Of a DNA stretch of 64,000 bases, positions 35,901 through 64,000 are shown one piece after another. The notes beneath the pieces are model-generated. The model was not told where the DNA came from. It did not search any database and saw nothing but the letters and a program-made list of their open reading frames with translations. Within the stretch, counting starts at the first letter, position 1; the number at the start of each line of letters is the position of its first letter. The DNA comes from Candidatus Omnitrophota bacterium (GTDB taxonomy: Bacteria > Omnitrophota > Gorgyraeia > Gygaellales > Profunditerraquicolaceae), in assembly GCA_041649115.1 (NCBI GenBank), contig JBAZNT010000001.1, positions 140,325 through 204,324 of the forward strand, read 5' to 3'. The translations under genes and the position numbers were made by a program.

Positions 35901-35903
35901 ATT

Positions 35904-50348: not shown

Positions 50349-50350
50349 AA

Positions 50351-51274
50351 ATGCAGGAATATACCGTCAAGGCAGATCTGGAAGAGACAGGCAGGCGCCT
50401 GGACGTATTTCTTTCCCGTTATTTCAAGGACATCAGGCTGGGGTACTCGCGGAATTTTATCCAGAGGCTGATCCGCGAGGGCGGCGTTACCTTAGGCGGC
50501 GTGTCGCTGAAACCCCACCATAAGGTGAAATCCGGAGAAGAATTTTGCATAACGGTAAACGAGAGAAAAGCCAGGGATTTAGAGCCACGCGAGATTGCGC
50601 TGGATGTGGTTTATGAGGATGATGAACTGGCGGTAGTAAACAAACCCTGCGGCATGGTAGTGCATCCGGGTGCGGGCAGGGAGCAGGATAGCCTGGCAAG
50701 CGGCCTCCTCTGCCGGTTTAAAAAATTATCCGATGTTAATCCCGAGAGGCCGGGCATTGTCCATCGGCTGGATAAGGATACTTCGGGGCTCTTGGTGGTA
50801 GCGAAGACCAACCCTGTTCATCTTGAGCTGGCGCGTCAGTTTGCAGAACACTCCATCAAGCGAAAATACCTTGCGCTGGTTGAAGGCAAGATGGAGTTTG
50901 ACGAGAACATAATCGAAGCGCCCATCGGCAGGCATCCTACCCAAAGAAAGAGCATGGCGGTCAACTTCAGCGCGGGCGCCCGGTATGCCAAGACCTATTA
51001 CCGCACCCTGGAACGCCTCGGGGGATTTAGTTTAGTAGAGTTGGAGCCTTTTACCGGCAGGACGCACCAGCTGCGGGTGCATTTGGCATATATCGGTCAC
51101 CCTGTCTTGGGAGACGCTAAATACGGCAAGCGCGGTAATTTTAGACGCCTGGCGCTTCATGCCGTATATTTAGGATTTACGCATCCGGTCAGCGGCAGAT
51201 CCCTGGAATTTAGATGCGATATGCCCGCCGAATTCAAAGAACATCTGCATAAAACAAAAACCCCCGTCCTATGA
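50351..51274 (+). CDS. rluD: RluA-family 23S rRNA pseudouridine synthase (RluD-like)
   Basis: N-terminal S4 domain, catalytic HRLDKDTSGLLVVAK, and GRTHQLRVH. Confidence 0.9.
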   Translation: MQEYTVKADLEETGRRLDVFLSRYFKDIRLGYSRNFIQRLIREGGVTLGGVSLKPHHKVKSGEEFCITVNERKARDLEPREIALDVVYEDDELAVVNKPCGMVVHPGAGREQDSLASGLLCRFKKLSDVNPERPGIVHRLDKDTSGLLVVAKTNPVHLELARQFAEHSIKRKYLALVEGKMEFDENIIEAPIGRHPTQRKSMAVNFSAGARYAKTYYRTLERLGGFSLVELEPFTGRTHQLRVHLAYIGHPVLGDAKYGKRGNFRRLALHAVYLGFTHPVSGRSLEFRCDMPAEFKEHLHKTKTPVL

Positions 51275-53049
51275 GCGGGTTTTCCGCAATGGACTCGATG
51301 ACATCTCCCGGGCAAGAGAAAAGGTGTTTTTTGGGAGGCGTAATGCAGAGCTTAGCGTTATTCTTCCGCAAGAACGCCGTCCTCGTGTTAGTGATTTCCT
51401 TTTTTGTCTTCGCCAACCTCATCTGGTGGCAACAGAATAAGTTTATTCAGGGGCCGGACGAAGGCGAACACTTGTATAAGAGCATCGAACTTTATGAATC
51501 CGGCGGTTATCTCCGTGAGTTCCTGCATCCTAAGGCCCACCATTCTTCTTACAACGGGCCTTTCTTTTACTCTACCGCCGGCATATTCTACCGCCTCTTT
51601 AACAGCAGCGCCTACCGGGTCTCCATCCTCAACATCCTTATTTATGCCGTCATTTTATTAATCGGCATAAGCAGGTTAGAGCGCTTATTCTTTAATACCG
51701 CCGGTATCCTTTCGCCGATGTTTTGCATGTTGATATATACCGGCGGCGTCTATTCAAGGTTCTTTAACCCCGACATAGCGGTGTGCGCCATACTGGTATG
51801 GTTTATGTATTTTCTTAAAAAACTGAATGATACCGTTAACCCGAAGTATTTCTTTATGTCCGCCCTGCTGATATTAATCGGAGGATATACCAAGGTAATG
51901 TTTTATTTATACGCTGCATTCCCCCTGTTATCTTATTTGCTTATGGCGTTTAGAAGGGGGGAAGTCAAAAAAATAACCTTTAACCTCATGTTAATCGCAT
52001 TCCTGCCTGTTCTCTTTTGGTTTATATATCCGGTTCCTTTTGAAAGAATAATCCTTGGGAGGCAGCTTAATTGTCAAGACATGCTGCAACAAGACAATCT
52101 TTCTGTTGCATATACCGCGGGAGGCTGCCTCGGTAACCTTAAGGAACTGGTTTTGATTATCGTCAATTCTCAATTCGGCGGGATAATGTTTTTATTCTTT
52201 ATTTTTAGTTTATTAGTTTTTATCTTTTCAACTGGCGAAAAAGAAGACAGATTCAGTATAATTGCGTGTTTTTTAGGTCCGCTCCTTGCATTTTTTATTT
52301 CAACATTTTCTTCATTGAGGATTAAATCTTTCGAAGACAGATATTTCATGCCCCTGGTCATTACCGAAGCTATAATAATGAGCTTTGCTTTGAATCGGTT
52401 TTTCCGCAGGAGGATTGTTCTTAGATTTGCGGCAGCGCTTTTTATCCTGTTTTTTTTCGTTCAATACCTGGGGTTTTCTTTTTCAAGAACCTGGATAGAT
52501 TTTTTTAACAGGCATACGGTTTTAAAAGGCGCGATAAATCTCTCGCATAAGCCGACGCTTTTCATTGCGCCTTCCCTGCCGATACGTTCCAACCCACTGG
52601 ATGGGATGTTGCAGATATTGAGGAGCGCTCAAGAGAATGGCGTGCCGGGGACCGCCTGTTTTATATACGACTTTGAGAAAGAGCCGTTTACCGATTTATT
52701 ATCCAAAAGGTTAGGATACTATACCCGCAGGAATCAGCATTTTATTTATACCGTCTGCGACGGATACCTTACCTGTACCGCCGGCTCTGTATCCGAAGCC
52801 AATTTCATCATAGTCAGCCGTTCCTACCTCAAAGAAAAAACAGAGGTCCTGTCCCCCGAATCCCTATTTTACAGGAAGGGCTGCCTTGATAACCCGGAGG
52901 CATACCAGCCCTTTCTGGAAGAGTTCGAGAGCTTCTTGAGGGAGGGGAGGTTTAGGCTTTACAGGCAGGTCGGTGCCTATGACCATATCCTGAATAGAAA
53001 AGAAGATTTTTTTATGTACCTCAAGGAAGAGATGCTGAAGCTGCTGTAA
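51271..53049 (+). CDS. Polytopic membrane protein, GT-C fold glycosyltransferase-like (ArnT/PMT family 39-like)
   Basis: At least 10 predicted TM segments. The first extracytoplasmic loop has a DE motif (QGPDEGEHLYKSIELYESGGY), as in ArnT/PMT enzymes, followed by a soluble C-terminal domain. The start may instead be the ATG at 51343 (MQSLALFF...). Confidence 0.6.
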   Translation: MSGFSAMDSMTSPGQEKRCFLGGVMQSLALFFRKNAVLVLVISFFVFANLIWWQQNKFIQGPDEGEHLYKSIELYESGGYLREFLHPKAHHSSYNGPFFYSTAGIFYRLFNSSAYRVSILNILIYAVILLIGISRLERLFFNTAGILSPMFCMLIYTGGVYSRFFNPDIAVCAILVWFMYFLKKLNDTVNPKYFFMSALLILIGGYTKVMFYLYAAFPLLSYLLMAFRRGEVKKITFNLMLIAFLPVLFWFIYPVPFERIILGRQLNCQDMLQQDNLSVAYTAGGCLGNLKELVLIIVNSQFGGIMFLFFIFSLLVFIFSTGEKEDRFSIIACFLGPLLAFFISTFSSLRIKSFEDRYFMPLVITEAIIMSFALNRFFRRRIVLRFAAALFILFFFVQYLGFSFSRTWIDFFNRHTVLKGAINLSHKPTLFIAPSLPIRSNPLDGMLQILRSAQENGVPGTACFIYDFEKEPFTDLLSKRLGYYTRRNQHFIYTVCDGYLTCTAGSVSEANFIIVSRSYLKEKTEVLSPESLFYRKGCLDNPEAYQPFLEEFESFLREGRFRLYRQVGAYDHILNRKEDFFMYLKEEMLKLL

Positions 53050-53204: not shown

Positions 53205-54191
53205 ATGAAGAGCGCCCCCTATATAAAATCATGTTTTGCCAATGACGGTTTGCGGAGGTTTTTAAATCTTGCACAGGCGTATTTGGTTTTTAAGACAAGG
53301 CCTCGATATGTGCGGGGTCAGCCTGTGATGGCTGTCCTGGAACCGACAAACCAATGCCCCTTAAAATGCGAAATGTGCGTGCGTCCTAAGCTGGGGTCTT
53401 TAAAGCTCGGGAGCATGAGTTATGACAATTTTGTCTGTTTGCTCGGTCAGTTTGATTACCTTGTCAGTCTCGCCTTAGTGGGGCTGGGAGAGCCTTTTTT
53501 GAATCAGGATTTGCCAAAAATGATTCACTATGCCAAGAGAGCCAGAAAAATTCCCTACATCTGGGTTTCTACAAACGGGATGGTTCTGGATAATATCGGC
53601 TACAAAGAGGTAAATTCCATGCCTGTTGAGGATATGCTTATTTCTTTTGACGCGGCATCCGCGGATACCTACGAAAAAATAAGAAAAGGCGCTTCCTTCA
53701 GCAGGCTTATAAAGAATATCGAAGGATTAATGGAGGTCAAGCGCAGCAGCGGAAAAGGGCCCAAGATAATCCTGGTTACCGTTGCCACAAATACCAATTC
53801 CGAGGAGCTTTTCGAAGTGGTCAAGGTAGCCGCTTCTCTCGGGGTGGATAAATTACGGATGATTACCGTAAACTCAGATTATCCGAATTCTCCCGGGATG
53901 GTCTTTAATGATCCCTCGAAGGAAGCCGGAAAACTGCAGGCCTTGGCGAGGCGTCTGCATTTGGCTTTTGAATATTCCAAGTTTGCCGAGTGTTTTGAGC
54001 CCTGGTTGCGTCCGTATATTACCTGGGATGGCTATCTAACGCCCTGCGCCTCCCGGCCTAACGCCGAGGAGATTAATTTTGGGAATGTCTTTGAGAAGCC
54101 GCTTGCCGAGATTTGGAACAGTAAGGATTTCCAGGCATTCAGGTCTTCCAGGCCTTCAATTTGCCGTCGCTGCCCACGCACATGGAAATAA
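53205..54191 (+). CDS. Radical SAM protein with a C-terminal SPASM/twitch-like Cys region
   Basis: Radical SAM motif EPTNQCPLKCEMC and GGEP-like VGLGEPFLN. C-terminal cysteines lie in AECFEPW...LTPCASRP...SICRRCPR. Confidence 0.75.
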   Translation: MKSAPYIKSCFANDGLRRFLNLAQAYLVFKTRPRYVRGQPVMAVLEPTNQCPLKCEMCVRPKLGSLKLGSMSYDNFVCLLGQFDYLVSLALVGLGEPFLNQDLPKMIHYAKRARKIPYIWVSTNGMVLDNIGYKEVNSMPVEDMLISFDAASADTYEKIRKGASFSRLIKNIEGLMEVKRSSGKGPKIILVTVATNTNSEELFEVVKVAASLGVDKLRMITVNSDYPNSPGMVFNDPSKEAGKLQALARRLHLAFEYSKFAECFEPWLRPYITWDGYLTPCASRPNAEEINFGNVFEKPLAEIWNSKDFQAFRSSRPSICRRCPRTWK

Positions 54192-54399: not shown

Positions 54400-55137
54400 A
54401 TGTTGCGCAAGATAGAAGGTCTTTCCGTAATCGTCCCCGTTCGCGATGAAGGAGGGACCATCAGGTCGGTCGTTCAGGATTGCTTGGCGCAGCTTGATGC
54501 GCTTGCATCCCGATATGAAGTTATCGTAGTAGACGACCACTCTTCGGAAGACGTGGAATTTCTGCTTGATGGGTTACCTTGCAGGGTAGTGAAGAATGTG
54601 TCCCGGGCCGGCAAAGGTAATGCCATAAGGAGCGGATTGAAGGAATGCCGTTACGGCACGGTTGTTATGCTGGATGGGGATTATTCCCACAGGCCCGAAG
54701 ACCTGCCTGTCTTGGCAAAGGAGTTTGAAAAGGGGTTTGGGTTGGTTGTGGCTAGCAGGGCATTAGGGGGAAGCGATGAATATAGCCTGATGAGAAGCAC
54801 GGGGAATATGCTGGCCACGTCTATGTTCAACTTGCTCTTTGGAGTGCATCTTAGCGATGCGCTCAACGGTTTTAAGATCTTTGACAGGCTTATAGCGGAT
54901 ACCTTTGCCTATGTCTCAGAGGGTTTTGATATAGAAATCGAGCTCCTTGCAAATGCAAGGAACCTGGGGTTAAGCATCGGTCAAGTCCCTTCTCATGAGC
55001 GCAGGAGGTCGCAGGGCATAGCCAAGAGCATGCCGTTTGTCATGGTCTTTTCGGTACCTTACCGGATATTATACGAGCGAATGCGTTACGGTAAGAAAAA
55101 GAGAATTGACGGCCCGCAGGCGCCTTCTTCCAGATGA
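54400..55137 (+). CDS. Family 2 glycosyltransferase, polyprenyl-phosphate sugar synthase-like (Dpm1/Ppm1/ArnC-like)
   Basis: Contains SVIVPVRDEGGTI, VVDDHSSED, LDGDYSH (DxD) and VVASRALGGSDEY...SDALNGFKIF. 245 aa. Confidence 0.78.
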   Translation: MLRKIEGLSVIVPVRDEGGTIRSVVQDCLAQLDALASRYEVIVVDDHSSEDVEFLLDGLPCRVVKNVSRAGKGNAIRSGLKECRYGTVVMLDGDYSHRPEDLPVLAKEFEKGFGLVVASRALGGSDEYSLMRSTGNMLATSMFNLLFGVHLSDALNGFKIFDRLIADTFAYVSEGFDIEIELLANARNLGLSIGQVPSHERRRSQGIAKSMPFVMVFSVPYRILYERMRYGKKKRIDGPQAPSSR

Positions 55138-56666
55138 AAAAAAACACACTTATCGTTTTTTGTATTTTGTTGGTTTCTCTTAACGTCGGGCTTCAGGCAG
55201 GAAAATTTGCAGCAGGCTGGGAAAAGCTGGTTACGCGCTGCCCCGTGTTCTATGCAATAGAAGCAAAGAACATCGCTCGTTTTGGCCTTCTCGGGATAGA
55301 CGGCTCGACCATTTTTGCGACTGGAGCCTACGGCCTCAAGAGAAGATTTGACGTGCCGATGTGCAACCATCCTCTCCTGACTTCAGCGATATGCGCTTTT
55401 TTCTTCAGGGTATTCGGAGTGCATGTCTGGGTTACCCAGCTATTGGCGCTGCTATTTGGCATAGGTATTTCCTTGATGGCAATGCTTCTTGCATGGCGTA
55501 TGAGCGGGATGTGGTTATGCGCCTTACTGGCGGGGGCATTGGCGAGCCTTGTCCCGGCGGCATTATATTACAACCATATCTTGGACCGTTGGTGGCTGGA
55601 TATCTTTTGGTTTCTGGCTGTTATTATTCTTTATCGCAGGGTATCGGAAGACGGATTTTTAAATTTCAAGGAAAAGGCCTGGCTTTATTTTTTCACCCTC
55701 CTGGCATGTCTTAATGGATGGCGTCTTCTGGCGCTGCCGCCGCTTCTTATGCTTCATTCCGCCGTTAAGATAAAAGAGGTAAGCGCCGACCGTAAGAATG
55801 CGGGGGCCAGTTTCCTGAGAGAGTACGGTTTTCTTTTGGCGTTGATTACTGTCGCCCTGCTATGGTTCATGCAGCGGATGCACGCGATGAATCTCGCTGA
55901 TTATTTAAGACTCGCATACCTTAAGACGGAGCCCAAGCCGGCAGATATTACCATATGGCAGTGGGCGTGGAAGTATTTCCGTATTCAGACGGATTCTTAC
56001 ACGTCTGTTCTCTACGTTCTTATTCTGCCCGGGCTGGCAGCATTTTTTTTCAACAGGCGCGTTACGCCTTCGGACAAGACGCTGATGGCAATAATCATCA
56101 TTTGGGGCGTCCTCACGAGCGCGTTTCTGACAAAACACGCCTATTACATCTATAGCCTCCACAATGCCTTTTTTATCCCGGTAGTTCTCTCGAGCGCGTA
56201 CCTTCTGGCCAGGCTCATATACCTGATTCCCAAACGCTATCTAGTTTTTCGGTTCGTTTTTTCGGTTTTTTTCTTTGTTTTCTTCATTCTCTCGACACAG
56301 CATGTTGTTGCGAGATGGCCTTTTAAGCGCTTTCCGTTGCGCAGTTTCGAAAGCGAAATAAATCGCGTTACCCTGCCGGAGGATATTATTGCAACCAATT
56401 CTGACCTTACGGGGCAGCATGATTATTCAACGGATATAAGAAATCCCGTCAATCTCCATAACATGTTTTACATGGACAGGGAGATTGAAATTTTCAAATC
56501 CAAAGGCGATTTTCTGAAAAAGGGCGGTAGGTATAAATATTTTGTTTTTGAAAAGAGCGAATCCGGCGTATCTGGCGAGGAAGAGGATCTTTTTGAATAC
56601 CTGAAGTTCAACTCGGCAGACATGAAAGAAGAAGGCCGTTTTTACATATTCAGGCTGAAGGAATGA
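55134..56666 (+). CDS. Polytopic membrane protein, possible second GT-C-type glycosyltransferase
   Basis: About 11 hydrophobic segments followed by a ~140-aa soluble tail. ATGA overlap with the GT2 gene. No clear catalytic motif recognised, so the family call is tentative. Confidence 0.4.
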   Translation: MKKNTLIVFCILLVSLNVGLQAGKFAAGWEKLVTRCPVFYAIEAKNIARFGLLGIDGSTIFATGAYGLKRRFDVPMCNHPLLTSAICAFFFRVFGVHVWVTQLLALLFGIGISLMAMLLAWRMSGMWLCALLAGALASLVPAALYYNHILDRWWLDIFWFLAVIILYRRVSEDGFLNFKEKAWLYFFTLLACLNGWRLLALPPLLMLHSAVKIKEVSADRKNAGASFLREYGFLLALITVALLWFMQRMHAMNLADYLRLAYLKTEPKPADITIWQWAWKYFRIQTDSYTSVLYVLILPGLAAFFFNRRVTPSDKTLMAIIIIWGVLTSAFLTKHAYYIYSLHNAFFIPVVLSSAYLLARLIYLIPKRYLVFRFVFSVFFFVFFILSTQHVVARWPFKRFPLRSFESEINRVTLPEDIIATNSDLTGQHDYSTDIRNPVNLHNMFYMDREIEIFKSKGDFLKKGGRYKYFVFEKSESGVSGEEEDLFEYLKFNSADMKEEGRFYIFRLKE

Positions 56667-56759: not shown

Positions 56760-58268
56760 ATGCGCGTAGTTCTGATAAACCCAAATCTTGACGGCTCACC
56801 CATCCCCAATATCGGACTTGCCTACGTTATCTCTTCCGTAGAACGCGATCATCAGGTGCGGCTCTTAGATATGGTTTTCCACACCGGGGATTACCGCCGT
56901 TATCTTGCCGCCAGTTTTAAGGAATTCAGGCCCGAGGTAATTGGGTTTTCAGTAAATAGCTTTACCTTCCACTATGCCCTTAAGATAGCCTCTTTCATAC
57001 GCGCAGAATATCCTGCAATCCCGCTGGTCTACGGAGGCATACATACGAGCCTTCTTCCGGAAGAAACAATCCGGAACCCGCTGGTTGATGCCATCTGCAT
57101 AGGGGAGGGGGAAGATTCATTCCGCGAATATCTCCGGAAGCTTGAGCGTGGCGAGCGCCCCCGGGATGTGGCAGGCATCTGGTATAAGGACGATACCGGT
57201 GCGGTCGTCAGGAACATCTTGCGTCCTTTTAGGGAGGATCTCGATTCGCTTCCTTTTCCTAACTGGGCACACTGGGACATGGACAGATATTTGAAGACGA
57301 ACCTCTATTTTGTAGGCGGGATAGGATACATGTTTTCCCGCGGCTGCCCGTATACGTGCAGTTTTTGTTCTAATCCCGCCATGCAACGGGCAATCCCCGG
57401 AAGGTTCTATCGCCATAGGAGCCCAGCTAACATTATAGAGGAGATAAAATTAAACAGAGACAGGTATGCCTCGCGCGGGTTCAGGAATGTCGCGTTTGGG
57501 GATGCAACCTTCGGTCTTAATAAGAGATTCCTGGAGGAATTCTGCGAACTCTACATGGGAGAACGGCTGCATCTTGATTTTCCGTGGGTGTGCCAGACAA
57601 GGGTAGATGTAATCACCGAGGAATGGGCGCGCCTTGTCGCCCGCGCAGGATGTTGTATGGTAACGCTGGGGATCGAGTCGGCCGACGATTACATACGCAC
57701 CAAGGTATTCAGGAAAACTATTTCTGCCGAGGCGATTGCAAATGCGATAGATAGATTGAAGAGAAATGATATAATGTATGCCATCAATATTATCATCGGT
57801 TGCCCTGATGAGACCAGGGAGAGCATAAAGAGGGTCTTGACCTTGTTGCGGAAGGCCAAGCCCGTCAATACCTACTTTTCTTTTTACCAGCCTTTGCCGA
57901 AGACCGAGCTCGGCGAGGCAACGAGAGAGTATATCGTAGTCAGCGAGGATAAGCTTACGAAGCCCTGGAATACCCCGCGCATATCCGTAAAATATATAAA
58001 GATTTCTGAATTAAAAAGGCTTATGCTGAGGATAAGGATAGCGAAGGTATTGAAGTTTTTTATTTCCGGGATAAGATTGAAAGGGGCGCGTTTTATCGTG
58101 ACAGTCATCAAGTACCTCTTTTCTATAGGCGGGTACCGGACGATGTCGCTGCGCAATCCCTATATGGAAGTAGACCTCGAGCAGAGGACCTTCTATCACT
58201 ACCTGCTTAATAACTGGAGGCGTTCTTACCTCAAGAAGATCTCGCAAGAAAAGGCGGAAGGTCGATGA
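56760..58268 (+). CDS. B12-binding-domain radical SAM protein (class B)
   Basis: N-terminal Rossmann-like B12 domain (VVLINPN...IGLAYV...VIGFSV...PLVYGGIHTS...ICIGEGE). Radical SAM motif FSRGCPYTCSFCSN. Confidence 0.8.
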   Translation: MRVVLINPNLDGSPIPNIGLAYVISSVERDHQVRLLDMVFHTGDYRRYLAASFKEFRPEVIGFSVNSFTFHYALKIASFIRAEYPAIPLVYGGIHTSLLPEETIRNPLVDAICIGEGEDSFREYLRKLERGERPRDVAGIWYKDDTGAVVRNILRPFREDLDSLPFPNWAHWDMDRYLKTNLYFVGGIGYMFSRGCPYTCSFCSNPAMQRAIPGRFYRHRSPANIIEEIKLNRDRYASRGFRNVAFGDATFGLNKRFLEEFCELYMGERLHLDFPWVCQTRVDVITEEWARLVARAGCCMVTLGIESADDYIRTKVFRKTISAEAIANAIDRLKRNDIMYAINIIIGCPDETRESIKRVLTLLRKAKPVNTYFSFYQPLPKTELGEATREYIVVSEDKLTKPWNTPRISVKYIKISELKRLMLRIRIAKVLKFFISGIRLKGARFIVTVIKYLFSIGGYRTMSLRNPYMEVDLEQRTFYHYLLNNWRRSYLKKISQEKAEGR

Positions 58269-59716
58269 AAACACTATTTATTGCGCCGTCAATAAAACAT
58301 AGCGCTTCCGCTGATTTTCCCGACGGCATACCTCGCAGCATCAGCAGGAATTTCGGTATTTATCCCTGGATCGGAATCTGTTCGATCGCGAGCTACCTGA
58401 GGCAGCATAATTTCGAATCCGACATTCTGGACATTGACGCCGAAGGGCTTTCCTTGAGGGGGGTTATCAGGAGGATACGGGAGAGCAATCCCCAGCTTAT
58501 CGGGATTTCCACTATTTCGTTTACATTTCTTTACGCGTTGAGGCTTGCCAGGGAGATCAAAAAACATTTCGATTGCCCTATCGTTATGGGGGGGCCGCAT
58601 GTCTCGATATATCCGAGAGAGGTGATGACGCACGGGTGTATCGATGTGGGCGTAATCGGGGAGGGAGAGCAGACATTCCTGGAGCTTGCGACTGCCTTTG
58701 CCGGCAATAGCGGCAACGAGGATGCGATACATAAGGAATTTTCAAGGATAGACGGCATTGCCTTCAGGTCAAACGCAAAAACGGTCGTCACGGCTCCGAG
58801 AAAACTATTCGATAATATCGATGAACTTCCGTTCCCGGCGATAGAGAAACTCAAGATACAGCGTTACTACGGATGCAATATAGGCAGGCCATATATAACG
58901 ATGGTAACGGCGCGGGGATGCCCTTTCTCCTGCAGCTTTTGTTCCAAGCAGCACTGGGGGGACAGCTTTAGGTTTCTCAGCGCAAGGAGGGTTGTTGATG
59001 AAATAGAATATTACATTAAACACCTCGGGATAAGGGCGGTTGACTTCTATGATGATACCTTTACCATCCCGCGTTCCAGGATACTTGAAATAACGGATTT
59101 AGTAAAAAAGCGCAATCTTAAATTTGATTTCGGCATGATGACGCGCGTCGACTGCGTGGACGCCGAATTGATTACCGCCTTAAAGGAAGCCGGCTGCAGG
59201 TCCCTGGCGTATGGGGTTGAATTCGGCGATGCCGATATCCAAAAAAAGGTAGATAAGGAATTTTCGTTTGCAGAGATAGACGGGGCCTTCCGGCTAGCCA
59301 GGCAGGCAGGTCTGGCAACGGTAGGATTTTTTATGGTAGGCCACCCCGAGGAGAGCGAGGATGCCGTAGGCAATACCATCAGGCTCATTAAACAGCTCGA
59401 TGTCGGCTATGTCAAAGCCAATATCCTCATACCATATCCGGGTTCGAAGCTATATCTTCAGCAGTTAAGATCCGGGAATCTAAAGGTAGATTTTTGGTCC
59501 GAATTAACCAGGGGGAAGATATTGCCTCTGGCCTCTTTGATAAAAACCAAGATAAGCATCCCCCGGTTAATAGAATTAAGAAATTATATCAACCGCCTTC
59601 CGTATTTGAAATTCAAGAGAAACAGCATTTCAAAGATACAGAAGATTAAATTATTCCAGGATATAAAACGGGCGTTTTCTATCTTAACCGGCTCTTACCT
59701 TGACAGGAGGGTATAG
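58265..59716 (+). CDS. B12-binding-domain radical SAM protein (class B), paralog of the preceding gene
   Basis: Contains IGICSIASYL...LIGISTISF...PIVMGGPHVS...GVIGEGE and radical SAM TARGCPFSCSFCSK. ATGA overlap with the upstream paralog. Confidence 0.8.
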   Translation: MKTLFIAPSIKHSASADFPDGIPRSISRNFGIYPWIGICSIASYLRQHNFESDILDIDAEGLSLRGVIRRIRESNPQLIGISTISFTFLYALRLAREIKKHFDCPIVMGGPHVSIYPREVMTHGCIDVGVIGEGEQTFLELATAFAGNSGNEDAIHKEFSRIDGIAFRSNAKTVVTAPRKLFDNIDELPFPAIEKLKIQRYYGCNIGRPYITMVTARGCPFSCSFCSKQHWGDSFRFLSARRVVDEIEYYIKHLGIRAVDFYDDTFTIPRSRILEITDLVKKRNLKFDFGMMTRVDCVDAELITALKEAGCRSLAYGVEFGDADIQKKVDKEFSFAEIDGAFRLARQAGLATVGFFMVGHPEESEDAVGNTIRLIKQLDVGYVKANILIPYPGSKLYLQQLRSGNLKVDFWSELTRGKILPLASLIKTKISIPRLIELRNYINRLPYLKFKRNSISKIQKIKLFQDIKRAFSILTGSYLDRRV

Positions 59717-59720
59717 GGGC

Positions 59721-60962
59721 TTGAGACTTATTAAGACCAGTACGAGTCTGTCCGCGTTTACGCTTCAAGAGGTTAGCTGCCGTATCTATGAAGATGAGGG
59801 GCGCGTTTTTTTAAATAAGGACGATTCTCCCGGCGAAAGACACCTCATTGAGAAGGCCCCGTCTTTTTATAAAAAAATGGATGTGGATTACGGTAGCATA
59901 TCGCAGGGGTTCGATAGGATAATGGTTGATGTTACTACCAGATGCAATTTGCATTGTTCAGTATGCTACCGCAAGCTTAATTCCAGGGAGGACGTTCCGC
60001 TGGCTACGCTCAGGGAATTTGCCGCCGGATGTCGCGGAAAGATTATTTCTCTCTGCGGAGGAGAACCGACAATGAGGGATGACCTGCCGGAGATTATCAG
60101 GTCCTTCGGCAGGAGGAATGCCGTGTTTCTGATTACCAACGGGATAAAACTTGCAGATTTCGATTACGCCTATAAACTCAAGATGAGCGGCCTGCGTTAC
60201 GTTTCGTTTTCCTTGAGCGGTTTTTCAGAGGGGACCCTGGGGCGCATAAACGAAGCCGGACTTCTTAGCGCCAAACTAAAGGCCCTGGGAAATCTTAAGC
60301 GTTTGAAGATAAAGACTGTTTTGGCGGCAGTATTAATCAAGGGGGTCAACGATAAAGAACTAAAGGATATTTTTGATTTTTGCCTGGATAACAGAGACTT
60401 TATCTACGAGCTCAGGGTAAGGGCAATGGCGCCTTTAGGCGCACATCTGGATTATGAAAGGATGTGCATCTCGCAGATGTTAGATACCGTAAGCGGGGAG
60501 TTGGGGATTGATAAAGGCGACATCCTGGGAGAATTTGAACTCAAGAGAGAAGCCAATGTTCTGTTTCGACGCGAGATTTTTAACATAAAAAGCTGCACCT
60601 TTGATTTCCATCTTAAGCTCCGGAAGAACGGTTTTTCTCCTGTTTGGAACAAATCCTTCAGCGTACACCCGCGCGCCTATCATCCGCTTTTACGGAAGGC
60701 ATCCGTTTTCTTAAGACTGATGAAGGTATTTGGGGCAGCAACGGTGTTGAGGGGCGCATTAAAGAAGGTTTTTAAAATAGATTTTTTGCCGTGGATTTAT
60801 CCCAAAAATATTTTTAAGGTCGGACTTAGATCCTGGCCCGATATTAACACCATAGACCTTCAGGAAAATTACCGCTGCAGAACCGGTTATTGGCTCGATG
60901 GTACGCTTGTTTCGTTTTGCCGCGCCAATATAATCAGAGATGGTTTTAAAAATGACCGATAA
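59721..60962 (+). CDS. Radical SAM protein, COG1964 / Tes (MJ0619)-like architecture with a degenerate N-terminal metal knuckle
   Basis: Radical SAM motif DVTTRCNLHCSVCY, GGEP (LCGGEPTM), and a C-terminal WPDINTIDLQENYRCRTGYWLDGTLVSFCRAN. The likely start is TTG 59721, after AGGAGG at 59704-59709; the track ORF begins at 59700. The family call rests on remembered motif patterns only. Confidence 0.55.
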   Translation: MRLIKTSTSLSAFTLQEVSCRIYEDEGRVFLNKDDSPGERHLIEKAPSFYKKMDVDYGSISQGFDRIMVDVTTRCNLHCSVCYRKLNSREDVPLATLREFAAGCRGKIISLCGGEPTMRDDLPEIIRSFGRRNAVFLITNGIKLADFDYAYKLKMSGLRYVSFSLSGFSEGTLGRINEAGLLSAKLKALGNLKRLKIKTVLAAVLIKGVNDKELKDIFDFCLDNRDFIYELRVRAMAPLGAHLDYERMCISQMLDTVSGELGIDKGDILGEFELKREANVLFRREIFNIKSCTFDFHLKLRKNGFSPVWNKSFSVHPRAYHPLLRKASVFLRLMKVFGAATVLRGALKKVFKIDFLPWIYPKNIFKVGLRSWPDINTIDLQENYRCRTGYWLDGTLVSFCRANIIRDGFKNDR

Positions 60963-61869
60963 GCTGTATGCTTGGATAGACGGACGGGTATCCTCCCAGG
61001 AGGTGGCGTTATTCAACCTTCGGCTTGGCGCTTTCCATTATGGCCTGGCGGCATTTGAGGGCATTCTGGCTGTGAGGGCGAGAGGCAAAGGAAGAAACGG
61101 CGTAGCTTTATTCAGGGCACCGGAACACATCGCCAGGCTTTTAGAATCGGCGCAAGCATTGCATCTGGACGTTCGCTATTCGCCGCAAGATATTCTTGAG
61201 GCCATAAGGGAAATCGTCATCCGCAACGGCTCACGCACCTGCTACGTACGCCCGTTGCTGTTTGGAGGCAACGATTATCTGCATTTAGCCCGTAAAAATA
61301 TGCCGGCGAGTCTGGCGGTGATGGTCAGGCCGTTTAACTTTTTGGCCTTTTCGCTTAAGATGAAAATTCCAGTTTCCCTGACGACCTTCGGAGGCAGGGA
61401 CAATCCTTCCGCCGGGGCACTCGGTTCTTTAAAGGTCTCGGGCAGATACGCGATGAATATGCTGGCAAAAAGATATGCCCTTGACCGGGGCTGTGCCGAT
61501 GCGGTTCTTTTTGATTCTTCAGGCAGCGTTGCGGAGGCAACGTCGTCAAACATATTTATAATATGCAAAAACAAAATATCTACCCCTGCGCCCGGGAAGA
61601 TTATAGATGGCATTACCAGAAAGACAGTGATATCCATTCTGGAGCAGATGGGCCTCAAGGTTGCCGTGAGGGTTATTGGCAGGGAGGAGCTGCTTGAGAG
61701 CGATGCGATATTTCTGACAGGAACGGCCAGCGGCATAGTCTGCGCTAGAAACATAGAGGGGCATAAGCTTAATGCCGCTGCCTTTGTTCCGGCGAAATTG
61801 CGCAGCAGATATATAGACATTATCAGCGGTCGCGATGACAAGAATAGCAGTTACCTTAATTATTGTTAA
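60940..61869 (+). CDS. Class IV (branched-chain amino acid / D-amino acid) aminotransferase family protein
   Basis: Contains FHYGLAAFEG, YVRPLLFGG, Lys region GSLKVSGRYAMNMLAKRYALDRGCADAVLFD, SVAEATSSNIF, DGITRKTVI and FLTGTASGI. The start is 60940 or 60952. Confidence 0.8.
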   Translation: MVLKMTDKLYAWIDGRVSSQEVALFNLRLGAFHYGLAAFEGILAVRARGKGRNGVALFRAPEHIARLLESAQALHLDVRYSPQDILEAIREIVIRNGSRTCYVRPLLFGGNDYLHLARKNMPASLAVMVRPFNFLAFSLKMKIPVSLTTFGGRDNPSAGALGSLKVSGRYAMNMLAKRYALDRGCADAVLFDSSGSVAEATSSNIFIICKNKISTPAPGKIIDGITRKTVISILEQMGLKVAVRVIGREELLESDAIFLTGTASGIVCARNIEGHKLNAAAFVPAKLRSRYIDIISGRDDKNSSYLNYC

Positions 61870-61881
61870 ACGCATAATACG

Positions 61882-63333
61882 ATGAGGGGCCCGTTTTTAG
61901 CAGAGCTTTCGGGAGGCGATGTCGCGCCTGGTTTATCAAGGCCGTTAAGAAAAACGGAAGAGATAGGCCGCACTTTAAGCGTTTGTCCGCGGTGCCTACG
62001 GACGGTTGAGGCCGCTGTCGTTAATAACAACGGTACCGTTATGATTGAAAAAATATGCCCGCGGCACGGCATATTTAAAGCGGTGCACATCTGGGATTCC
62101 GAACGTGTTTACCGGGGATTATCGGAGATTTTTGGGGGGCAGCAGGCGCGTGCAGCCAACGGCCTAGTATTGAACGTTACCAATAACTGCAACCTTCATT
62201 GTTCTTTTTGTTTTGCCAGGGCAAATGAAAGAACGGCGAATTCCTTGTCGCGCGACGCCATCGAGAAAATACTCGCCAGGCACCGGGGAGGGATCGTGTA
62301 CTTTTCGGGAGGGGAGCCGACGGTGCATCGGGGGTTGCTTGCGGATATGCGTCTCGTCAAGGAGCGCGGCCGTTCGGTAGGACTTTTCAGCAACGGCAAA
62401 AAACTTCAGCAGGTCAGTTATGTCAATCAGCTCCGCGAGGCAGGGGTAGATTTTGTAATCCTGCAGTTCGATTCCCTACGCGACGAGCATTATATATTCA
62501 TGCGGGGGGAAGCGTTGCTCCAGCAGAAGATGCGGGCCTTGGACAACCTGAGGTCTGCCCGTATACCCGTATACCTGTTTGTGATGCTTTTGGAAGGAAG
62601 AAATATAACAGAAATCGCTTCTTTGATACGGTTTGTTTCCGCTAAAAGCGATTTTATTAAAATAATCAATTTTAACCCGGTTTGGGATATTGGCAGGGTC
62701 GGCGCGCATCAAAAGATAACCACCTCGAAGATACTGAGCGCTATTGAGTCGCAGACAGGATTGACGACCGGAGATTTCCTGGATTCCACCGCGTTTTCCT
62801 TTTATTTATTTGAGGCCCTTGGGAAATTAAGCAAGAAAAGCGTGAATCTGCAGCCGGCCTGCGAACTACGCTGCTACGTGATGTTCAGGCGCGGCAGGCC
62901 AGTCCCGCTTACGAAAATAGTAGATATCAAAAGGCTTAATTTTTATTTGATGAAAATCGTCAAGGGCAGCGGAGCTGAGCGGATTTCGCGTTTGTTGCTG
63001 CTGCCGGTTTTTTTTCTGGAGGCCTTTATCGCCAACGGGAATTTCCGGTTTCTCTCGCGGCTTATTCTTAAGAACCTTGTAAGAAATTTACTCGGTATTT
63101 CATTGTTGCGCCTTTCCCCCTTTGCGAGCATAATCGTAGGAACATTCCAGACTGCGGAGAACCTGGATTTCAATTCAGTTAAGACCTGCAACCTTTATTC
63201 TGATTACCCGCAGGGAGAATTTATTTTTTCAGCTTGCATCAGGCAGATTTTAATGGATGGGATTGACGGGGCGGAGGGGGTTGATATGCAGGACCTCCTG
63301 TCTTCTTACAGAAAATCCGTCTTTGGTCCTTGA
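61882..63333 (+). CDS. Radical SAM protein, COG1964 / Tes (MJ0619)-like, with an intact N-terminal CPxC...CPxHG knuckle
   Basis: N-terminal CPRCLRTVEAAVVNNNGTVMIEKICPRHG, radical SAM NVTNNCNLHCSFCF, FSGGEPT, and C-terminal FQTAENLDFNSVKTCNLYSDYPQGEFIFSAC. The family call rests on remembered motif patterns only. Confidence 0.6.
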   Translation: MRGPFLAELSGGDVAPGLSRPLRKTEEIGRTLSVCPRCLRTVEAAVVNNNGTVMIEKICPRHGIFKAVHIWDSERVYRGLSEIFGGQQARAANGLVLNVTNNCNLHCSFCFARANERTANSLSRDAIEKILARHRGGIVYFSGGEPTVHRGLLADMRLVKERGRSVGLFSNGKKLQQVSYVNQLREAGVDFVILQFDSLRDEHYIFMRGEALLQQKMRALDNLRSARIPVYLFVMLLEGRNITEIASLIRFVSAKSDFIKIINFNPVWDIGRVGAHQKITTSKILSAIESQTGLTTGDFLDSTAFSFYLFEALGKLSKKSVNLQPACELRCYVMFRRGRPVPLTKIVDIKRLNFYLMKIVKGSGAERISRLLLLPVFFLEAFIANGNFRFLSRLILKNLVRNLLGISLLRLSPFASIIVGTFQTAENLDFNSVKTCNLYSDYPQGEFIFSACIRQILMDGIDGAEGVDMQDLLSSYRKSVFGP

Positions 63334-63410
63334 TGCTGATAAGGCGGTTTAATGGCCGTTAGAGTCAAAATGATGCCTTTTTAACGTGTTTCATCATACG
63401 GGGATATCCG

Positions 63411-64000
63411 ATGCCTGGAGAGCAAAGATATAGTCTTACGCAGCTGTTGAGGGTTAAAGACTGGCTGCATATCTTAGGTATTACTCTTCTTGGGATGCTG
63501 TATGTTTCCAGGGAAATGCCCTCCGGGATGTTTCCGTTATGGGCGTTGATTGTTGCTTCGCTGTACCTAGCCCACGGTTATTCCATGAATACCTGTCTTG
63601 ATTTGCGCTACGGCGGCATTATATCCGCAGAATATTTTTACAGGGGGCTGGCCTTTTCTTATTGCCTGTTTTTATTGAATTGCCTCATCGCCTACCATCT
63701 CTCGCTTTATATTTTAGGCATTGTGATTATCGGCAGCCTGGCGTGCCTGGCTTATTCTGCCAGGCCCCTTAGGTTGAAAAGGTTCATCGCGTCCAATCTT
63801 GCGCTTAATTCTTTTGGTTTTTCCATGCTTTTCCTTTTAGGGGTTGTTGCGGCATCCGGCAGGATAGGGCCGGCATCGTTTATCGCCACCGCATTTTTCT
63901 TTCTTATTTTTATCCCGTTGCAGCTCGTGCACCACATTGCGCATACGGAGGAAGACAGGGGCCAGCGGATATCGGCTTTACATATAAGATACGGCATGAA
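63411..64000 (+). CDS. UbiA-family prenyltransferase-like membrane protein (3' end outside the window; not in the supplied ORF track)
   Basis: I translated it by hand from the ATG at 63411; the frame is open to base 64000: MPGEQRYSLTQLLRVKDWLHILGITLLG...AYSARPLRLKRFIASNL...HHIAHTEEDRGQRISAL. The YSxxPxRLKR and ExxD-x-G motifs are typical of UbiA enzymes. The first Asp-rich motif is atypical (NTCLDLRY). Confidence 0.6.
   Translation, partial: MPGEQRYSLTQLLRVKDWLHILGITLLGMLYVSREMPSGMFPLWALIVASLYLAHGYSMNTCLDLRYGGIISAEYFYRGLAFSYCLFLLNCLIAYHLSLYILGIVIIGSLACLAYSARPLRLKRFIASNLALNSFGFSMLFLLGVVAASGRIGPASFIATAFFFLIFIPLQLVHHIAHTEEDRGQRISALHIRYGM

What the first reader, a model, noticed from the sequence alone, without database searches (positions are those of the whole stretch)
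59700..63333. Two divergent Tes/COG1964-like radical SAM paralogs bracket a class IV aminotransferase; one keeps the CPxC...CPxHG knuckle and the other has lost it
The 61882-63333 protein starts with CPRCLRTVEAAVVNNNGTVMIEKICPRHG. This is the rubredoxin/zinc-ribbon-like N-terminal signature I associate with the MJ0619/Tes family.

The 59721-60962 paralog aligns over the same stretch (SLSAFTLQEVSCRIYEDEGRVFLNKDDSPGERH) but has replaced the paired Cys and the CP-x-HG ligands.

Both keep the radical SAM core (CNLHCSxC, GGEPT) and the C-terminal D-x-N-x-x-D...C...(D/Q)G-x-x-(V/I)-(S/F)-(F/S)-(C/A)C block: WPDINTIDLQENYRCRTGYWLDGTLVSFC versus FQTAENLDFNSVKTCNLYSDYPQGEFIFSAC.

A catalytic subunit paired with a degenerate partner suggests a heteromer or two sequential C-C coupling steps.

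The class IV aminotransferase wedged between them, with an apparently intact Lys, Glu and GITR-like region, has no obvious role in a pure hydrocarbon-coupling pathway. It could supply branched-chain 2-oxo-acid primers for iso-branched chains, which are the building blocks of bacterial branched tetraethers. It could also aminate an intermediate. Both ideas are speculation.
Basis: partly seen in the sequence, partly recalled or inferred. Interest (0 to 1): 0.7.

Follow-up and report, generated by a model that had tools for sequence, protein, structure and literature searches.

The report
Paired Tes-like radical SAM enzymes, prenyl-lipid cassette
Two distantly related copies of an enzyme that resembles the archaeal tetraether-lipid synthase sit with an aminotransferase, a membrane prenyltransferase and several B12-dependent radical enzymes in a gene cassette that recurs in uncultured bacteria, and it probably tailors an unknown isoprenoid envelope lipid.

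Summary
The proteins at 59721-60962 ("A") and 61882-63333 ("B") are full-length homologues: BLASTP gives 27% identity at E 1e-25, and profile comparison gives E 2.7e-62. In the PDB, both are closest by sequence and by predicted fold (TM 0.75-0.78) to GDGT-MAS/Tes (7TOL).

B keeps the rubredoxin CX2CX20CX2H site. A keeps that fold but has lost all four ligands, and this is not a start-site artefact.

Neither protein is a true Tes:
- Both lack the N-terminal [4Fe-4S] domain.
- The labile Met439 is Gly in B and Arg in A.
- Both score far below the Tes and TrsS family cut-offs.

A is not a dead partner. Its radical SAM triad, GGE motif and three C-terminal cluster cysteines are invariant.

The pair belongs to a conserved cassette of A, B, a BCAT-like PLP enzyme, a B12-radical SAM enzyme and a divergent UbiA prenyltransferase. 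I found the cassette in about 15-20 distinct loci from MAGs labelled Omnitrophota, Elusimicrobia and Planctomycetia. It often lies beside glycosyltransferases and, in at least one locus, an FPP/GGPP synthase. The usual gene order is B-A-aminotransferase, so the bracketing seen here is local.

Most likely the cassette tailors a prenyl lipid by radical chemistry.

The parts
59721..60962 (+). Radical SAM protein A (413 aa): GDGT-MAS-like fold with rubredoxin ligands lost
   Evidence: PF04055 69.9 bits. Best PDB match 7tol, E 1.2e-21. AF2 pLDDT 91.7; Foldseek TMq to 7tol/7tom 0.75-0.77. 100% identical to P0057, named 'MAG: Candidatus Omnitrophota bacterium'.
59721..59852 (+). Degenerate rubredoxin-like N-domain of A (residues 1-44); ligand columns are S, T, D, G
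   Evidence: Aligned to B residues 28-72 by BLASTP and hhalign. Ligand columns. Four beta-strands with pLDDT 93-97. In-frame stop at 59685-59687 excludes an N-terminal extension.
59943..59966 (+). A radical SAM motif C75-x3-C79-x2-C82
   Evidence: Read from the sequence. Invariant in 31 family members.
60594..60920 (+). A C-terminal auxiliary-cluster region: C292, R370 (in the Met439 column), C386, C400
   Evidence: These columns align with MJ0619 C338, M439, C455 and C470. C292, R370, C386 and C400 are invariant.
60952..61869 (+). Class IV (BCAT-like) PLP aminotransferase, 305 aa (309 aa if started at 60940)
   Evidence: PF01063 142.9 bits. NCBIfam BCAT 219.1 bits against a cut-off of 279. 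Best PDB matches are bacterial BCATs 4whx and 1wrv, E about 1e-42. Lys, Glu and YxR are kept and FEGxR is FEGIL.
61882..63333 (+). Radical SAM protein B (483 aa): GDGT-MAS-like with an intact rubredoxin site
   Evidence: PF23545 55.1 bits and PF04055 89.9 bits. 7tol E 2e-43. AF2 pLDDT 90.7; TMq 0.78.
61984..62067 (+). B rubredoxin-type site C35-x2-C38-x20-C59-x2-H62
   Evidence: Same spacing as MJ0619 C9X2C12X20C33X2H36 (PMC9433317). Invariant in the B family.
62188..62211 (+). B radical SAM motif C103-x3-C107-x2-C110
62860..63237 (+). B C-terminal auxiliary-cluster region: C327, G420 (in the Met439 column), C436, C452
   Evidence: Aligned with MJ0619 C338, M439, C455 and C470. C327, C436 and C452 are invariant and G420 is nearly invariant.
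58265..59716 (+). B12-binding radical SAM protein 'B12b', a member of the conserved cassette core
   Evidence: PF02310 and PF04055. Below every NCBIfam cut-off (best ApyD 177, HpnJ 156). Adjacent to A/aminotransferase/UbiA in most loci.
56760..58268 (+). B12-binding radical SAM protein 'B12a'
   Evidence: PF02310 and PF04055. One to five or more copies in related loci.
63412..64000 (+). Divergent UbiA-family prenyltransferase (280 aa, runs off the window end)
   Evidence: Full gene seen in L009 11848-12690, which is identical to the window. PF01040. Only weak matches to ChlG, DGGGP synthase and homogentisate phytyltransferase models (27 bits or less).
53205..54191 (+). Radical SAM/SPASM protein
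   Evidence: PF13186 62.8 bits and PF04055. Recurs in L001, L003 and L098.
54400..55137 (+). GT2 glycosyltransferase (polyprenyl-phosphate sugar synthase-like)
   Evidence: PF00535 79.8 bits. Best NCBIfam match AglJ, 81 bits.
55134..56666 (+). 510-aa membrane protein with no family match
   Evidence: No Pfam or NCBIfam hit.
51271..53049 (+). PMT_2 (GT-C type) membrane glycosyltransferase; left border of the cassette
   Evidence: PF13231 35.3 bits. The upstream genes are housekeeping: RluD-type pseudouridine synthase, Lgt, IleS.

Best explanation
A and B are two anciently diverged members of an uncharacterised group of short GDGT-MAS/Tes-like radical SAM enzymes that lack the N-terminal [4Fe-4S] domain. 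Each should bind a SAM-cleaving [4Fe-4S] cluster and a C-terminal auxiliary [4Fe-4S] cluster held by three Cys. The fourth iron of that auxiliary cluster is not capped by the labile Met of Tes (Gly in B, Arg in A). B also keeps the mononuclear rubredoxin-type site. A has lost it or, in many relatives, has deleted the whole domain.

The two proteins work inside a conserved cassette with a divergent UbiA prenyltransferase, one or more B12-dependent radical SAM enzymes, often a SPASM radical SAM enzyme, and a BCAT-like PLP enzyme.

Inferred mechanism:
1. UbiA attaches a C15-C20 prenyl chain to an acceptor.
2. A and B each abstract hydrogen from an unactivated carbon of the hydrophobic chain. As in Tes, they use the auxiliary cluster to hold the first radical, then form C-C (or C-S) links.
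3. The B12 enzymes methylate or cyclise the chain.
4. The neighbouring glycosyltransferases decorate or use the lipid in the cell envelope.
5. The PLP enzyme, which follows A most closely, interconverts an alpha-amino and alpha-keto acid that is the acceptor, the head group or an intermediate.

What is shown: homology, fold, ligand map, cassette conservation. What is inferred: substrate, reaction, order of steps, and any A-B complex.
For: Fold and family:
- 7tol/7tom is the best match by sequence and by fold, over the full length.
- Profile scores are A-B 467, A-Tes 394.5 and B-Tes 497.6.

Ligand map across 118 and then 263 sequences:
- The radical SAM triad and the three C-terminal Cys are invariant in both families.
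- The N-cluster is deleted in both.
- The Met439 column is invariant Gly in B and Arg in A.

Helical region: both proteins have a long helical insert before the C-terminal block (B H349-401, A H322-350). It occupies the region where GDGT-MAS builds its second lipid pocket from amphipathic helices (PMC9433317).

Cassette:
- A and B are adjacent in 15 distinct loci, and the trio with the aminotransferase is adjacent in at least 13.
- UbiA and a B12-radical SAM gene sit next to them in most loci, although gene order varies.
- The aminotransferase's nearest homologues lie on the same contigs as A's nearest homologues.
- B and A overlap by 4 bp or abut in L098, L005 and L102.

Isoprenoid and envelope context:
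- An FPP/GGPP synthase lies beside the aminotransferase in L099 (271.6 bits), and a polyprenyl synthase was also found in the set surveyed.
- GT2, GT4, PMT_2, YfhO, Wzy_C, WecA-like and carbamoyltransferase genes recur.

Published parallel: Tes, a SPASM radical SAM enzyme (Gms) and B12 radical SAM enzymes (Grs, Gmm) form the archaeal tetraether-modifying toolkit, and gms-tes clusters exist in Planctomycetes (PMC11214058).
Against: - There is no biochemical evidence for any member, and no bacterial Tes homologue has a confirmed function.
- Two Tes features tied to its mechanism, Met439 and the N-cluster, are missing, so the chemistry may differ.
- The invariant Arg in A next to the auxiliary cluster, together with a carboxylate-recognising PLP enzyme (YxR kept), would fit a small polar substrate as well as a lipid.
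- The UbiA protein is so divergent that neither donor nor acceptor can be assigned.
- No GGGP synthase or G1P dehydrogenase homologue turned up in the gene calls or in the Pfam survey of the neighbourhoods.
- Some loci have A without B (L027, L028, L031, L032, L103) or B-like copies without A or the aminotransferase (L003, L100). An obligate A-B pair is therefore not universal.
Confidence: 0.45

Rival explanations
1. Amino-acid or small-molecule tailoring. A, perhaps with B, acts on the side chain of an alpha-keto or alpha-amino acid that the BCAT-like enzyme interconverts, for example by radical C-C coupling or rearrangement at an isopropyl-type terminus. The B12 enzymes add methyl groups. 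UbiA then prenylates the product, or it becomes a lipid head group.
For: - The aminotransferase is the gene most tightly linked to A. They overlap or abut in most loci, and the two loci that have B-like copies but no A (L003, L100) also lack the aminotransferase.
- The aminotransferase keeps the Lys, the Glu and the YxR carboxylate-binding motif.
- A has an invariant Arg in the column of the cluster-capping Met.
- A PaaK-like adenylating enzyme is present in L098.
- The best NCBIfam match of B12b is a RiPP methylase-type protein (ApyD).
Against: - Both A and B model as the full GDGT-MAS fold, including the helical region.
- UbiA is a constant partner and a prenyl-diphosphate synthase appears in at least one locus.
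- No NRPS genes turned up in the gene calls or Pfam survey, and no conserved small ORF was found.
- L026 and L029 have A and B but no aminotransferase.
Confidence: 0.2
2. The pair couples iso-branched fatty acyl chains tail to tail (iso-diabolic acid or brGDGT type), and the aminotransferase supplies branched 2-oxo-acid primers.
For: - The proteins are homologous to Tes.
- Published work hypothesises that bacterial Tes homologues make brGDGTs (PMC8941075).
- The aminotransferase is closest to BCATs.
Against: - No fatty-acid synthase, FabH or branched-chain keto-acid dehydrogenase turned up in the gene calls or Pfam survey of the neighbourhoods.
- The constant partner is a prenyltransferase, and a short-chain prenyl-diphosphate synthase is present in L099.
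- The aminotransferase lacks the BCAT FEGxR Arg in 16 of 16 copies and falls below all BCAT equivalog cut-offs.
- Tes homologues were absent from most known iso-diabolic acid producers (PMC13159169).
Confidence: 0.1
3. A is a non-catalytic or purely structural subunit of B, that is, a pseudoenzyme partner.
For: - A has lost the rubredoxin site.
- The two genes are adjacent and often overlap.
Against: - The radical SAM Cys triad, GGEPT and three auxiliary-cluster Cys are invariant over 31 diverged sequences (34-60% identity to the window protein).
- A-type proteins occur without B in several loci.
- The exhaustive search finds dozens of 50%-identity clusters of the same rubredoxin-less type.
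Confidence: 0.05
4. A RiPP or peptide-maturation cluster, or a pterin methylase as in the old HMPTM annotation of MJ0619.
For: - The loci hold many B12 and SPASM radical SAM genes.
- Some database names for homologues read '7,8-dihydro-6-hydroxymethylpterin dimethyltransferase'.
Against: - No precursor-like conserved small ORF lies in or near the cassette.
- MJ0619 was reassigned to GDGT-MAS, and its authors could not corroborate the pterin methylation (PMC9433317).
- No pterin-pathway genes were seen among the neighbours.
- Membrane glycosyltransferases and UbiA dominate the context.
Confidence: 0.04

Closest known systems
GDGT-MAS / tetraether synthase Tes (MJ0619, PDB 7TOL/7TOM; NCBIfam NF045702)
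   Same: - Same overall fold over the full length (TM 0.75-0.78).
- Same radical SAM motif.
- Same three Cys of the C-terminal auxiliary cluster (C338, C455, C470 columns).
- B has the same CX2CX20CX2H rubredoxin site.
- Both have a helical region where Tes has its lipid pocket.
   Different: - The N-terminal [4Fe-4S] domain (C73/C77/C80 plus His) is deleted in both.
- Labile Met439 is Gly in B and Arg in A.
- Tyr459 is variable in the B family.
- A has no rubredoxin ligands.
- Scores are 179.6 and 93 bits against the 450-bit equivalog cut-off.
- The gene context has UbiA and a PLP aminotransferase, and the hosts are bacteria.
Bacterial Tes homologues proposed for brGDGT synthesis (Acidobacteria, Planctomycetes; PMC8941075, PMC11214058)
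   Same: - They are bacterial.
- Their function is untested.
- They cluster with SPASM (Gms-like) and B12 radical SAM genes.
   Different: The sampled bacterial homologues that resemble archaeal Tes keep Met439, and most also keep the N-cluster Cys (the Acidobacteriota-type proteins lack them; groups O/Tb). A and B fall in a separate N-cluster-less group (bootstrap 75).
TrsS radical SAM (seleno)protein (NCBIfam NF045646)
   Same: It is the highest-scoring NCBIfam model for both proteins (180.9 and 108.2 bits).
   Different: The scores are far below its 490-bit cut-off. No function for TrsS was found in the searched literature.
Branched-chain amino acid aminotransferase IlvE (for example PDB 4WHX, 1WRV, 1I1K)
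   Same: Full-length class IV fold with the catalytic Lys, the Glu, YxR and GITR-type motifs. E about 1e-42 to bacterial BCATs.
   Different: The FEGxR Arg is Leu in all cassette copies, the GSGEN loop is ATSSN-like, and the protein scores below every BCAT equivalog cut-off. It is encoded inside a radical SAM/UbiA cassette.
Archaeal tetraether-modifying toolkit (Tes + Gms + GrsA/B + Gmm) and the hopanoid side-chain pathway (HpnH, HpnO, HpnI, HpnJ)
   Same: Both combine several radical SAM classes (auxiliary-cluster type, SPASM, B12) acting on an isoprenoid lipid. The hopanoid pathway also includes an aminotransferase and a GT2; this part is from my own knowledge.
   Different: None of the window's proteins reaches the cut-off of any named member (HpnJ 155.7 against 577.6). 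The aminotransferase is fold type IV, not the HpnO type.

Membership tests
Tes / GDGT-MAS | Rubredoxin-type site C9X2C12X20C33X2H36 | tested here: inconclusive
   Met in B (C35, C38, C59, H62) and in all 35 B-family sequences that include the N-terminus. Not met in A (S, T, D, G).
Tes / GDGT-MAS | N-terminal auxiliary [4Fe-4S] cluster (C73, C77, C80 plus His) | tested here: not met
   These columns are gaps in both families. There is no Cys between the ribbon and the radical SAM motif.
Tes / GDGT-MAS | Radical SAM CX3CX2C cluster and GGE SAM-binding motif | tested here: met
   A has C75/C79/C82 and G113-G114-E115. B has C103/C107/C110 and G143-G144-E145. The Cys triads, the GGE Glu, both B Gly and A G113 are invariant; A G114 is nearly invariant.
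Tes / GDGT-MAS | C-terminal auxiliary [4Fe-4S] cluster cysteines | tested here: met
   A C292/C386/C400 and B C327/C436/C452 align with MJ0619 C338/C455/C470 and are invariant. Actual cluster binding was not tested.
Tes / GDGT-MAS | Labile Met439 ligand (conserved in 1000 archaeal homologues) | tested here: not met
   Gly in B (G420) and Arg in A (R370), in an ungapped local alignment.
Tes / GDGT-MAS | Tyr459 near the substrate terminus | tested here: inconclusive
   Tyr in nearly all of the A family and in the window's B, but variable (Y/F/L/I/S/A) across the B family. The Y459F variant of Tes remains active.
Tes / GDGT-MAS | NCBIfam equivalog score of at least 450 bits (NF045702) | tested here: not met
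   B 179.6 bits, A 93 bits.
Tes / GDGT-MAS | Overall three-dimensional fold | tested here: met
   Foldseek against 7tol/7tom: TMq 0.78 for B and 0.75-0.77 for A. The next best is 0.41 or lower. These are predicted models, with pLDDT about 91.
Tes / GDGT-MAS | Csp3-Csp3 coupling of phytanyl termini of archaeal lipids | not testable with these tools
   Needs anaerobic enzymology or heterologous expression.
TrsS (NF045646) | Equivalog score of at least 490 bits | tested here: not met
   B 180.9 bits, A 108.2 bits.
Radical SAM superfamily (PF04055) | Pfam gathering score of 29.5 bits | tested here: met
   A 69.9 bits, B 89.9 bits.
PF23545 Zn_ribbon_HMPTM | Pfam gathering score of 27 bits | tested here: inconclusive
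   B 55.1 bits (met). A gives no hit at E 0.01 (not met). A few A-family relatives still register the domain (P0064, P0089; 'faint' in P0146).
Branched-chain aminotransferase IlvE | NCBIfam equivalog cut-offs (NF005146 at 279 bits, TIGR01122 at 245.55 bits) | tested here: not met
   219.1 and 193.7 bits.
Branched-chain aminotransferase IlvE | Catalytic Lys, cofactor Glu and YxR motif | tested here: met
   Conserved in 16-17 cassette copies.
Branched-chain aminotransferase IlvE | Arg of the FEGxR motif. That this Arg is a BCAT signature is recalled from memory (Hoehne et al. 2010) and was not re-read here. | tested here: not met
   FEGIL or a similar sequence without the Arg in 16 of 16 cassette copies; the Burkholderia BCAT 4whx has FEGVR.
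MoaA (GTP 3',8-cyclase) | Equivalog cut-offs of 231-325 bits | tested here: not met
   67-78 bits over the radical SAM core only.

The most novel reading that the evidence does not exclude
The cassette lets bacteria of uncultured phyla (Omnitrophota, Elusimicrobia and others) build a macrocyclic or membrane-spanning isoprenoid lipid. UbiA would attach C15-C20 prenyl chains to an amino-acid-derived acceptor made by the PLP enzyme. A complex of B and A would then join unactivated chain carbons, with B as the rubredoxin-bearing entry point for electrons and A lacking that site. Each would use an auxiliary cluster with an open iron site in place of the Met-capped one of Tes. This would be a bacterial, non-glycerol counterpart of archaeal tetraether synthesis and a possible source of orphan lipid biomarkers.
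Probability: 0.15. Interest if true: 0.85.

Novelty: new variant of a known kind. Interest (0 to 1): 0.55.

Why it matters
Tes is the only enzyme of this fold with known chemistry, which is joining two unactivated sp3 carbons through a cluster-bound intermediate. The role of its bacterial homologues is an open question for the origin of bacterial membrane-spanning lipids and for lipid-based palaeoclimate proxies.

This cassette defines two stable variants with a reduced cofactor set: no N-cluster, no capping Met, and with or without rubredoxin. That makes it a natural experiment on which metal sites the chemistry needs.

The fixed association with a UbiA prenyltransferase and a non-canonical BCAT-like enzyme points to an undescribed isoprenoid-based envelope lipid in phyla that have no cultured members. 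The cassette is compact (about 12 kb here), so it can be tested by anaerobic heterologous expression.

Tried and rejected
- Start-site or frameshift artefact for the missing Cys in A: rejected. There is an in-frame stop at 59685-59687, the upstream gene ends at 59716, homologues show the same pattern, and many relatives start directly at the stop codon of B.
- True Tes or TrsS membership: rejected on scores and on the ligand map.
- Recent tandem duplication of A and B: rejected by the NJ tree (an exclusive A+B clade has bootstrap 0), although both share the N-cluster deletion.
- RiPP cluster: no conserved small ORF. The small ORFs called in L001 and L099 are unrelated to each other, and those in L001 look like fragments of a membrane protein.
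- Pterin methylase (HMPTM): this is only a legacy name.
- Assigning the UbiA acceptor: failed. Only weak hits were found, to ChlG, DGGGPS, HPT and EboC.
- Literature search for this cassette, or for the function of TrsS: nothing found in 6 searches.
- The 221-kb NCBI contig that holds the window could not be fetched, so the right border of the cassette is unknown.
- The afdb50 fold library was not available.
- The genome scan used restrictive patterns and returned only 6 true loci, so the taxonomic range is a lower bound.
- A first tree script timed out. The tree used is a simple NJ tree with Kimura distances, not maximum likelihood.

Full report
**What is at the coordinates**

All the large ORFs from 51271 to the window end lie on the + strand:

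| Coordinates | Product |
|---|---|
| 51271-53049 | PMT_2 (GT-C type) glycosyltransferase |
| 53205-54191 | radical SAM/SPASM protein |
| 54400-55137 | GT2 glycosyltransferase |
| 55134-56666 | 510-aa membrane protein with no family match |
| 56760-58268 | B12-binding radical SAM protein |
| 58265-59716 | B12-binding radical SAM protein |
| 59721-60962 | radical SAM protein A |
| 60940/60952-61869 | class IV aminotransferase |
| 61882-63333 | radical SAM protein B |
| from 63412 | UbiA-family prenyltransferase, runs off the window |

The genes upstream of 51271 are housekeeping: IleS, Lgt and an RluD-type pseudouridine synthase. A is 100% identical to a protein named 'MAG: Candidatus Omnitrophota bacterium'.

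**Check of the observation**

A and B are homologous along their whole length.
- BLASTP gives 27% identity at E 1e-25.
- Family profiles (31 and 39 sequences) align with hhalign probability 100%, E 2.7e-62, over 410 columns.

B carries C35-x2-C38-x20-C59-x2-H62 and matches Pfam PF23545. In A these four columns are Ser, Thr, Asp and Gly.

A start-site artefact is excluded.
- The reading frame of A has a TAA at 59685-59687, and the upstream gene ends at 59716.
- Relatives at 50-60% identity show the same S/T/D/G pattern.
- The AlphaFold model folds residues 2-44 of A into beta-strands with pLDDT 93-97, laid out like the first four strands of B.

**Relation to Tes**

GDGT-MAS (7TOL/7TOM) is the best solved relative by sequence, with E 2e-43 for B and 1.2e-21 for A. 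It is also the best by fold. The models have pLDDT 90.7 and 91.7, and TM-scores normalised to the query are 0.78 for B and 0.75-0.77 for A. Every other radical SAM structure reaches 0.41 or less and covers only the core.

I rebuilt the MJ0619 sequence from a printed alignment and checked it against the residue numbers in the structure paper. I then mapped its ligands on 118 sequences.

| Feature (MJ0619 numbering) | Archaeal Tes and close bacterial homologues | B family | A family |
|---|---|---|---|
| Rubredoxin site C9, C12, C33, H36 | kept | kept | lost |
| N-terminal cluster C73, C77, C80 | kept | domain deleted | domain deleted |
| Radical SAM triad | kept | kept | kept |
| C338, C455, C470 | kept | kept | kept |
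| Met439 | Met | invariant Gly | invariant Arg |
| Tyr459 | Tyr | variable | Tyr |

About 25 of the 36 A-family sequences also lack the whole N-domain. They are 340-365 aa long, and in the loci examined they start at or inside the stop codon of B.

Both proteins fall far below the NCBIfam cut-offs for Tes (179.6 and 93 against 450) and for TrsS (180.9 and 108.2 against 490). They share the Tes fold and probably its type of chemistry, but they are not members of the Tes equivalog.

**A is not a dead copy**

In the 31 A-family sequences the radical SAM Cys triad, the first Gly, the Glu, Pro and Thr of GGEPT (the second Gly is nearly invariant), the three C-terminal Cys and Arg370 are all invariant. 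Identity to the window protein falls as low as 34% in this set.

An exhaustive HMMER search with the A profile found 704 representatives at E 1e-30 or better. Most of the best 45 or so have the same rubredoxin-less pattern, with Arg or Lys in the Met439 column. Further down the list come short forms that keep the rubredoxin site.

A neighbour-joining tree gave these results:

| Grouping | Bootstrap |
|---|---|
| B family monophyletic | 91 |
| Rubredoxin-less A group | 68 |
| A group together with the rubredoxin-bearing short forms | 69 |
| All N-cluster-less short forms separated from Tes-type proteins | 75 |
| Exclusive A+B clade | 0 |

The loss in A is therefore secondary, old and stable. 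A and B are two old lineages rather than a recent duplicate pair. The tree method is simple, so this should be repeated with maximum likelihood.

**The cassette**

I examined related loci from protein look-ups and from two collection scans. I annotated them with the window's proteins as queries.
- A and B are adjacent in 15 distinct loci.
- B, A and the aminotransferase are adjacent in at least 13.
- A B12-radical SAM gene and a UbiA gene flank them in most loci.
- The common order is B-A-aminotransferase-B12-UbiA(-). The window (B12, B12, A, aminotransferase, B, UbiA) and L001 (aminotransferase, B, B12, A, UbiA(-)) are rearranged. Even a 55%-identical relative of A (L102) has the order B-A-aminotransferase. 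The bracketing arrangement is thus local, while the gene content is conserved.
- B and A overlap by 4 bp or abut in L098, L005 and L102.

There are exceptions.
- L003 and L100 have two or three B-like genes but no A and no aminotransferase.
- L026 and L029 have A and B but no aminotransferase.
- L027, L028, L031, L032 and L103 have an A-type gene without B.

The genome records name the hosts as Omnitrophota, an Elusimicrobia MAG and 'uncultured Planctomycetia' MAGs.

**The aminotransferase**

It aligns end to end with bacterial BCATs at E about 1e-42 but is below every NCBIfam BCAT cut-off. In 16-17 cassette copies the catalytic Lys, the Glu and the YxR motif are kept. The Arg of FEGxR is missing in all 16 copies that cover this motif (Leu in 15, Ser in one), and the GSGEN loop is replaced.

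Its closest database homologues lie on the same contigs as the closest homologues of A. It is a dedicated, non-canonical member of the BCAT branch. The kept YxR suggests an alpha-carboxylate substrate; that reading of the motif is from memory.

**Context and likely function**

The UbiA protein is very divergent. Its best models are chlorophyll synthase, DGGGP synthase and homogentisate phytyltransferase at 56 bits or less. From my own knowledge, all three use C20 prenyl donors.
- L099 carries a short-chain prenyl-diphosphate synthase beside the aminotransferase (FPP synthase model 271.6 bits, GGPP synthase 254 bits). One was also found in the surveyed set.
- The neighbourhoods are rich in GT2, GT4, PMT_2, YfhO, Wzy_C, WecA-like, carbamoyltransferase, class I methyltransferase and FAD-oxidoreductase genes.
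- No fatty-acid synthesis genes turned up in the gene calls or the Pfam survey, and no conserved precursor peptide was found.
- The mix of enzyme classes (Tes-like, SPASM and B12 radical SAM) matches the published archaeal tetraether-modifying toolkit of Tes, Gms, Grs and Gmm. Gms-tes clusters have been reported in Planctomycetes and Acidobacteria (PMC11214058).
- Bacterial Tes homologues remain functionally unconfirmed.

**Best explanation and its limits**

I think the cassette tailors a prenyl (C15-C20) lipid of the cell envelope. UbiA would attach the chain, and A and B would each activate unactivated chain carbons. They would use the three-Cys auxiliary cluster, as Tes does, to store a radical and form C-C or C-S links. 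The B12 enzymes would methylate or cyclise, and the PLP enzyme would handle an amino or keto acid that serves as acceptor, head group or intermediate.

B's rubredoxin may be the entry point for electrons. A may depend on B or on another reductant.

The homology, fold, ligand map and gene linkage are shown. Everything about substrate and reaction is inference, and I give the mechanism a confidence of 0.45.

The main rival (confidence 0.2) is that A works on the amino or keto acid itself. This would fit the invariant Arg beside the auxiliary cluster and the tight link between A and the aminotransferase.

**Novelty**

Six literature searches found no paper that describes this cassette or these two subfamilies. 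The proteins are annotated only as 'radical SAM protein'. I rate it a new variant of a known kind: GDGT-MAS-like enzymes with a reduced and altered set of metal sites, in a new genetic context.

Noticed in passing
window 51549-51689, and the end of L009/L007 (just beyond window position 64000): An exact direct repeat of at least 141 nt links the PMT_2 gene at 51271-53049 with a second PMT_2 paralog that starts 4 nt after the UbiA gene. The paralogs are about 86% identical overall at the DNA level, with a stretch of 100% identity. The two copies bracket the whole cassette (about 12.9 kb), and the MEGAHIT k141 contig L009 starts and ends inside the repeat. This could reflect gene conversion, or it could make the cassette prone to excision or duplication.
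   Followed up: partly
window 50001-64000 compared with 1-48000: The cassette region has lower G+C (0.43-0.49, lowest at 52001-54000) than most of the rest of the window (about 0.49-0.53, apart from one 0.474 bin at 2001-4000). Together with its patchy spread over several phyla, this hints at horizontal transfer.
   Followed up: no
window 12926-13201 (+): An FMN riboswitch (80.5 bits, cut-off 66.2) spans 276 nt for a 138-position model, so it carries a large insertion. It lies upstream of a fused ribBA gene at 13257-14471.
   Followed up: no
window 55134-56666 (+): A 510-aa membrane protein (hydrophobic throughout, judged by eye from the translation) has no Pfam or NCBIfam match. Its start overlaps the end of the GT2 gene by 4 nt. 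No homologue (phmmer score of 60 bits or more) appeared in the other cassette loci, only in contigs identical to the window. It may be an unrecognised GT-C type transferase or a flippase.
   Followed up: partly
L003/L013 (GCA_964415355.1, contig CAYPYS010000003.1): This locus is extremely rich in radical SAM genes: about seven B12-radical SAM genes in the 21 kb, three B-type GDGT-MAS-like genes, a MiaB-like gene, SPASM genes, a UbiA and a GT2. It has no A-type gene and no aminotransferase.
   Followed up: partly
L098 14680-21071 and L103 2227-6906: A block of Wzy_C, GT4, WecA-like Glycos_transf_4 and an FAD amine-oxidase/UGM-like oxidoreductase recurs next to the UbiA gene in two different loci. 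L098 also has a carbamoyltransferase.
   Followed up: no
P0056, P0099 (database proteins): A large family fuses a class I methyltransferase to the zinc-ribbon and radical SAM architecture; one cluster alone has 2064 member sequences. Its function is unknown to me.
   Followed up: no
window 28946-43276 and 17994-18071: A cell-wall and division (dcw-type) gene block includes a PBP transpeptidase, a Mur ligase, MraY, MurG and FtsA. A tRNA-Pro(CGG) lies at 17994-18071. Both are ordinary.
   Followed up: no
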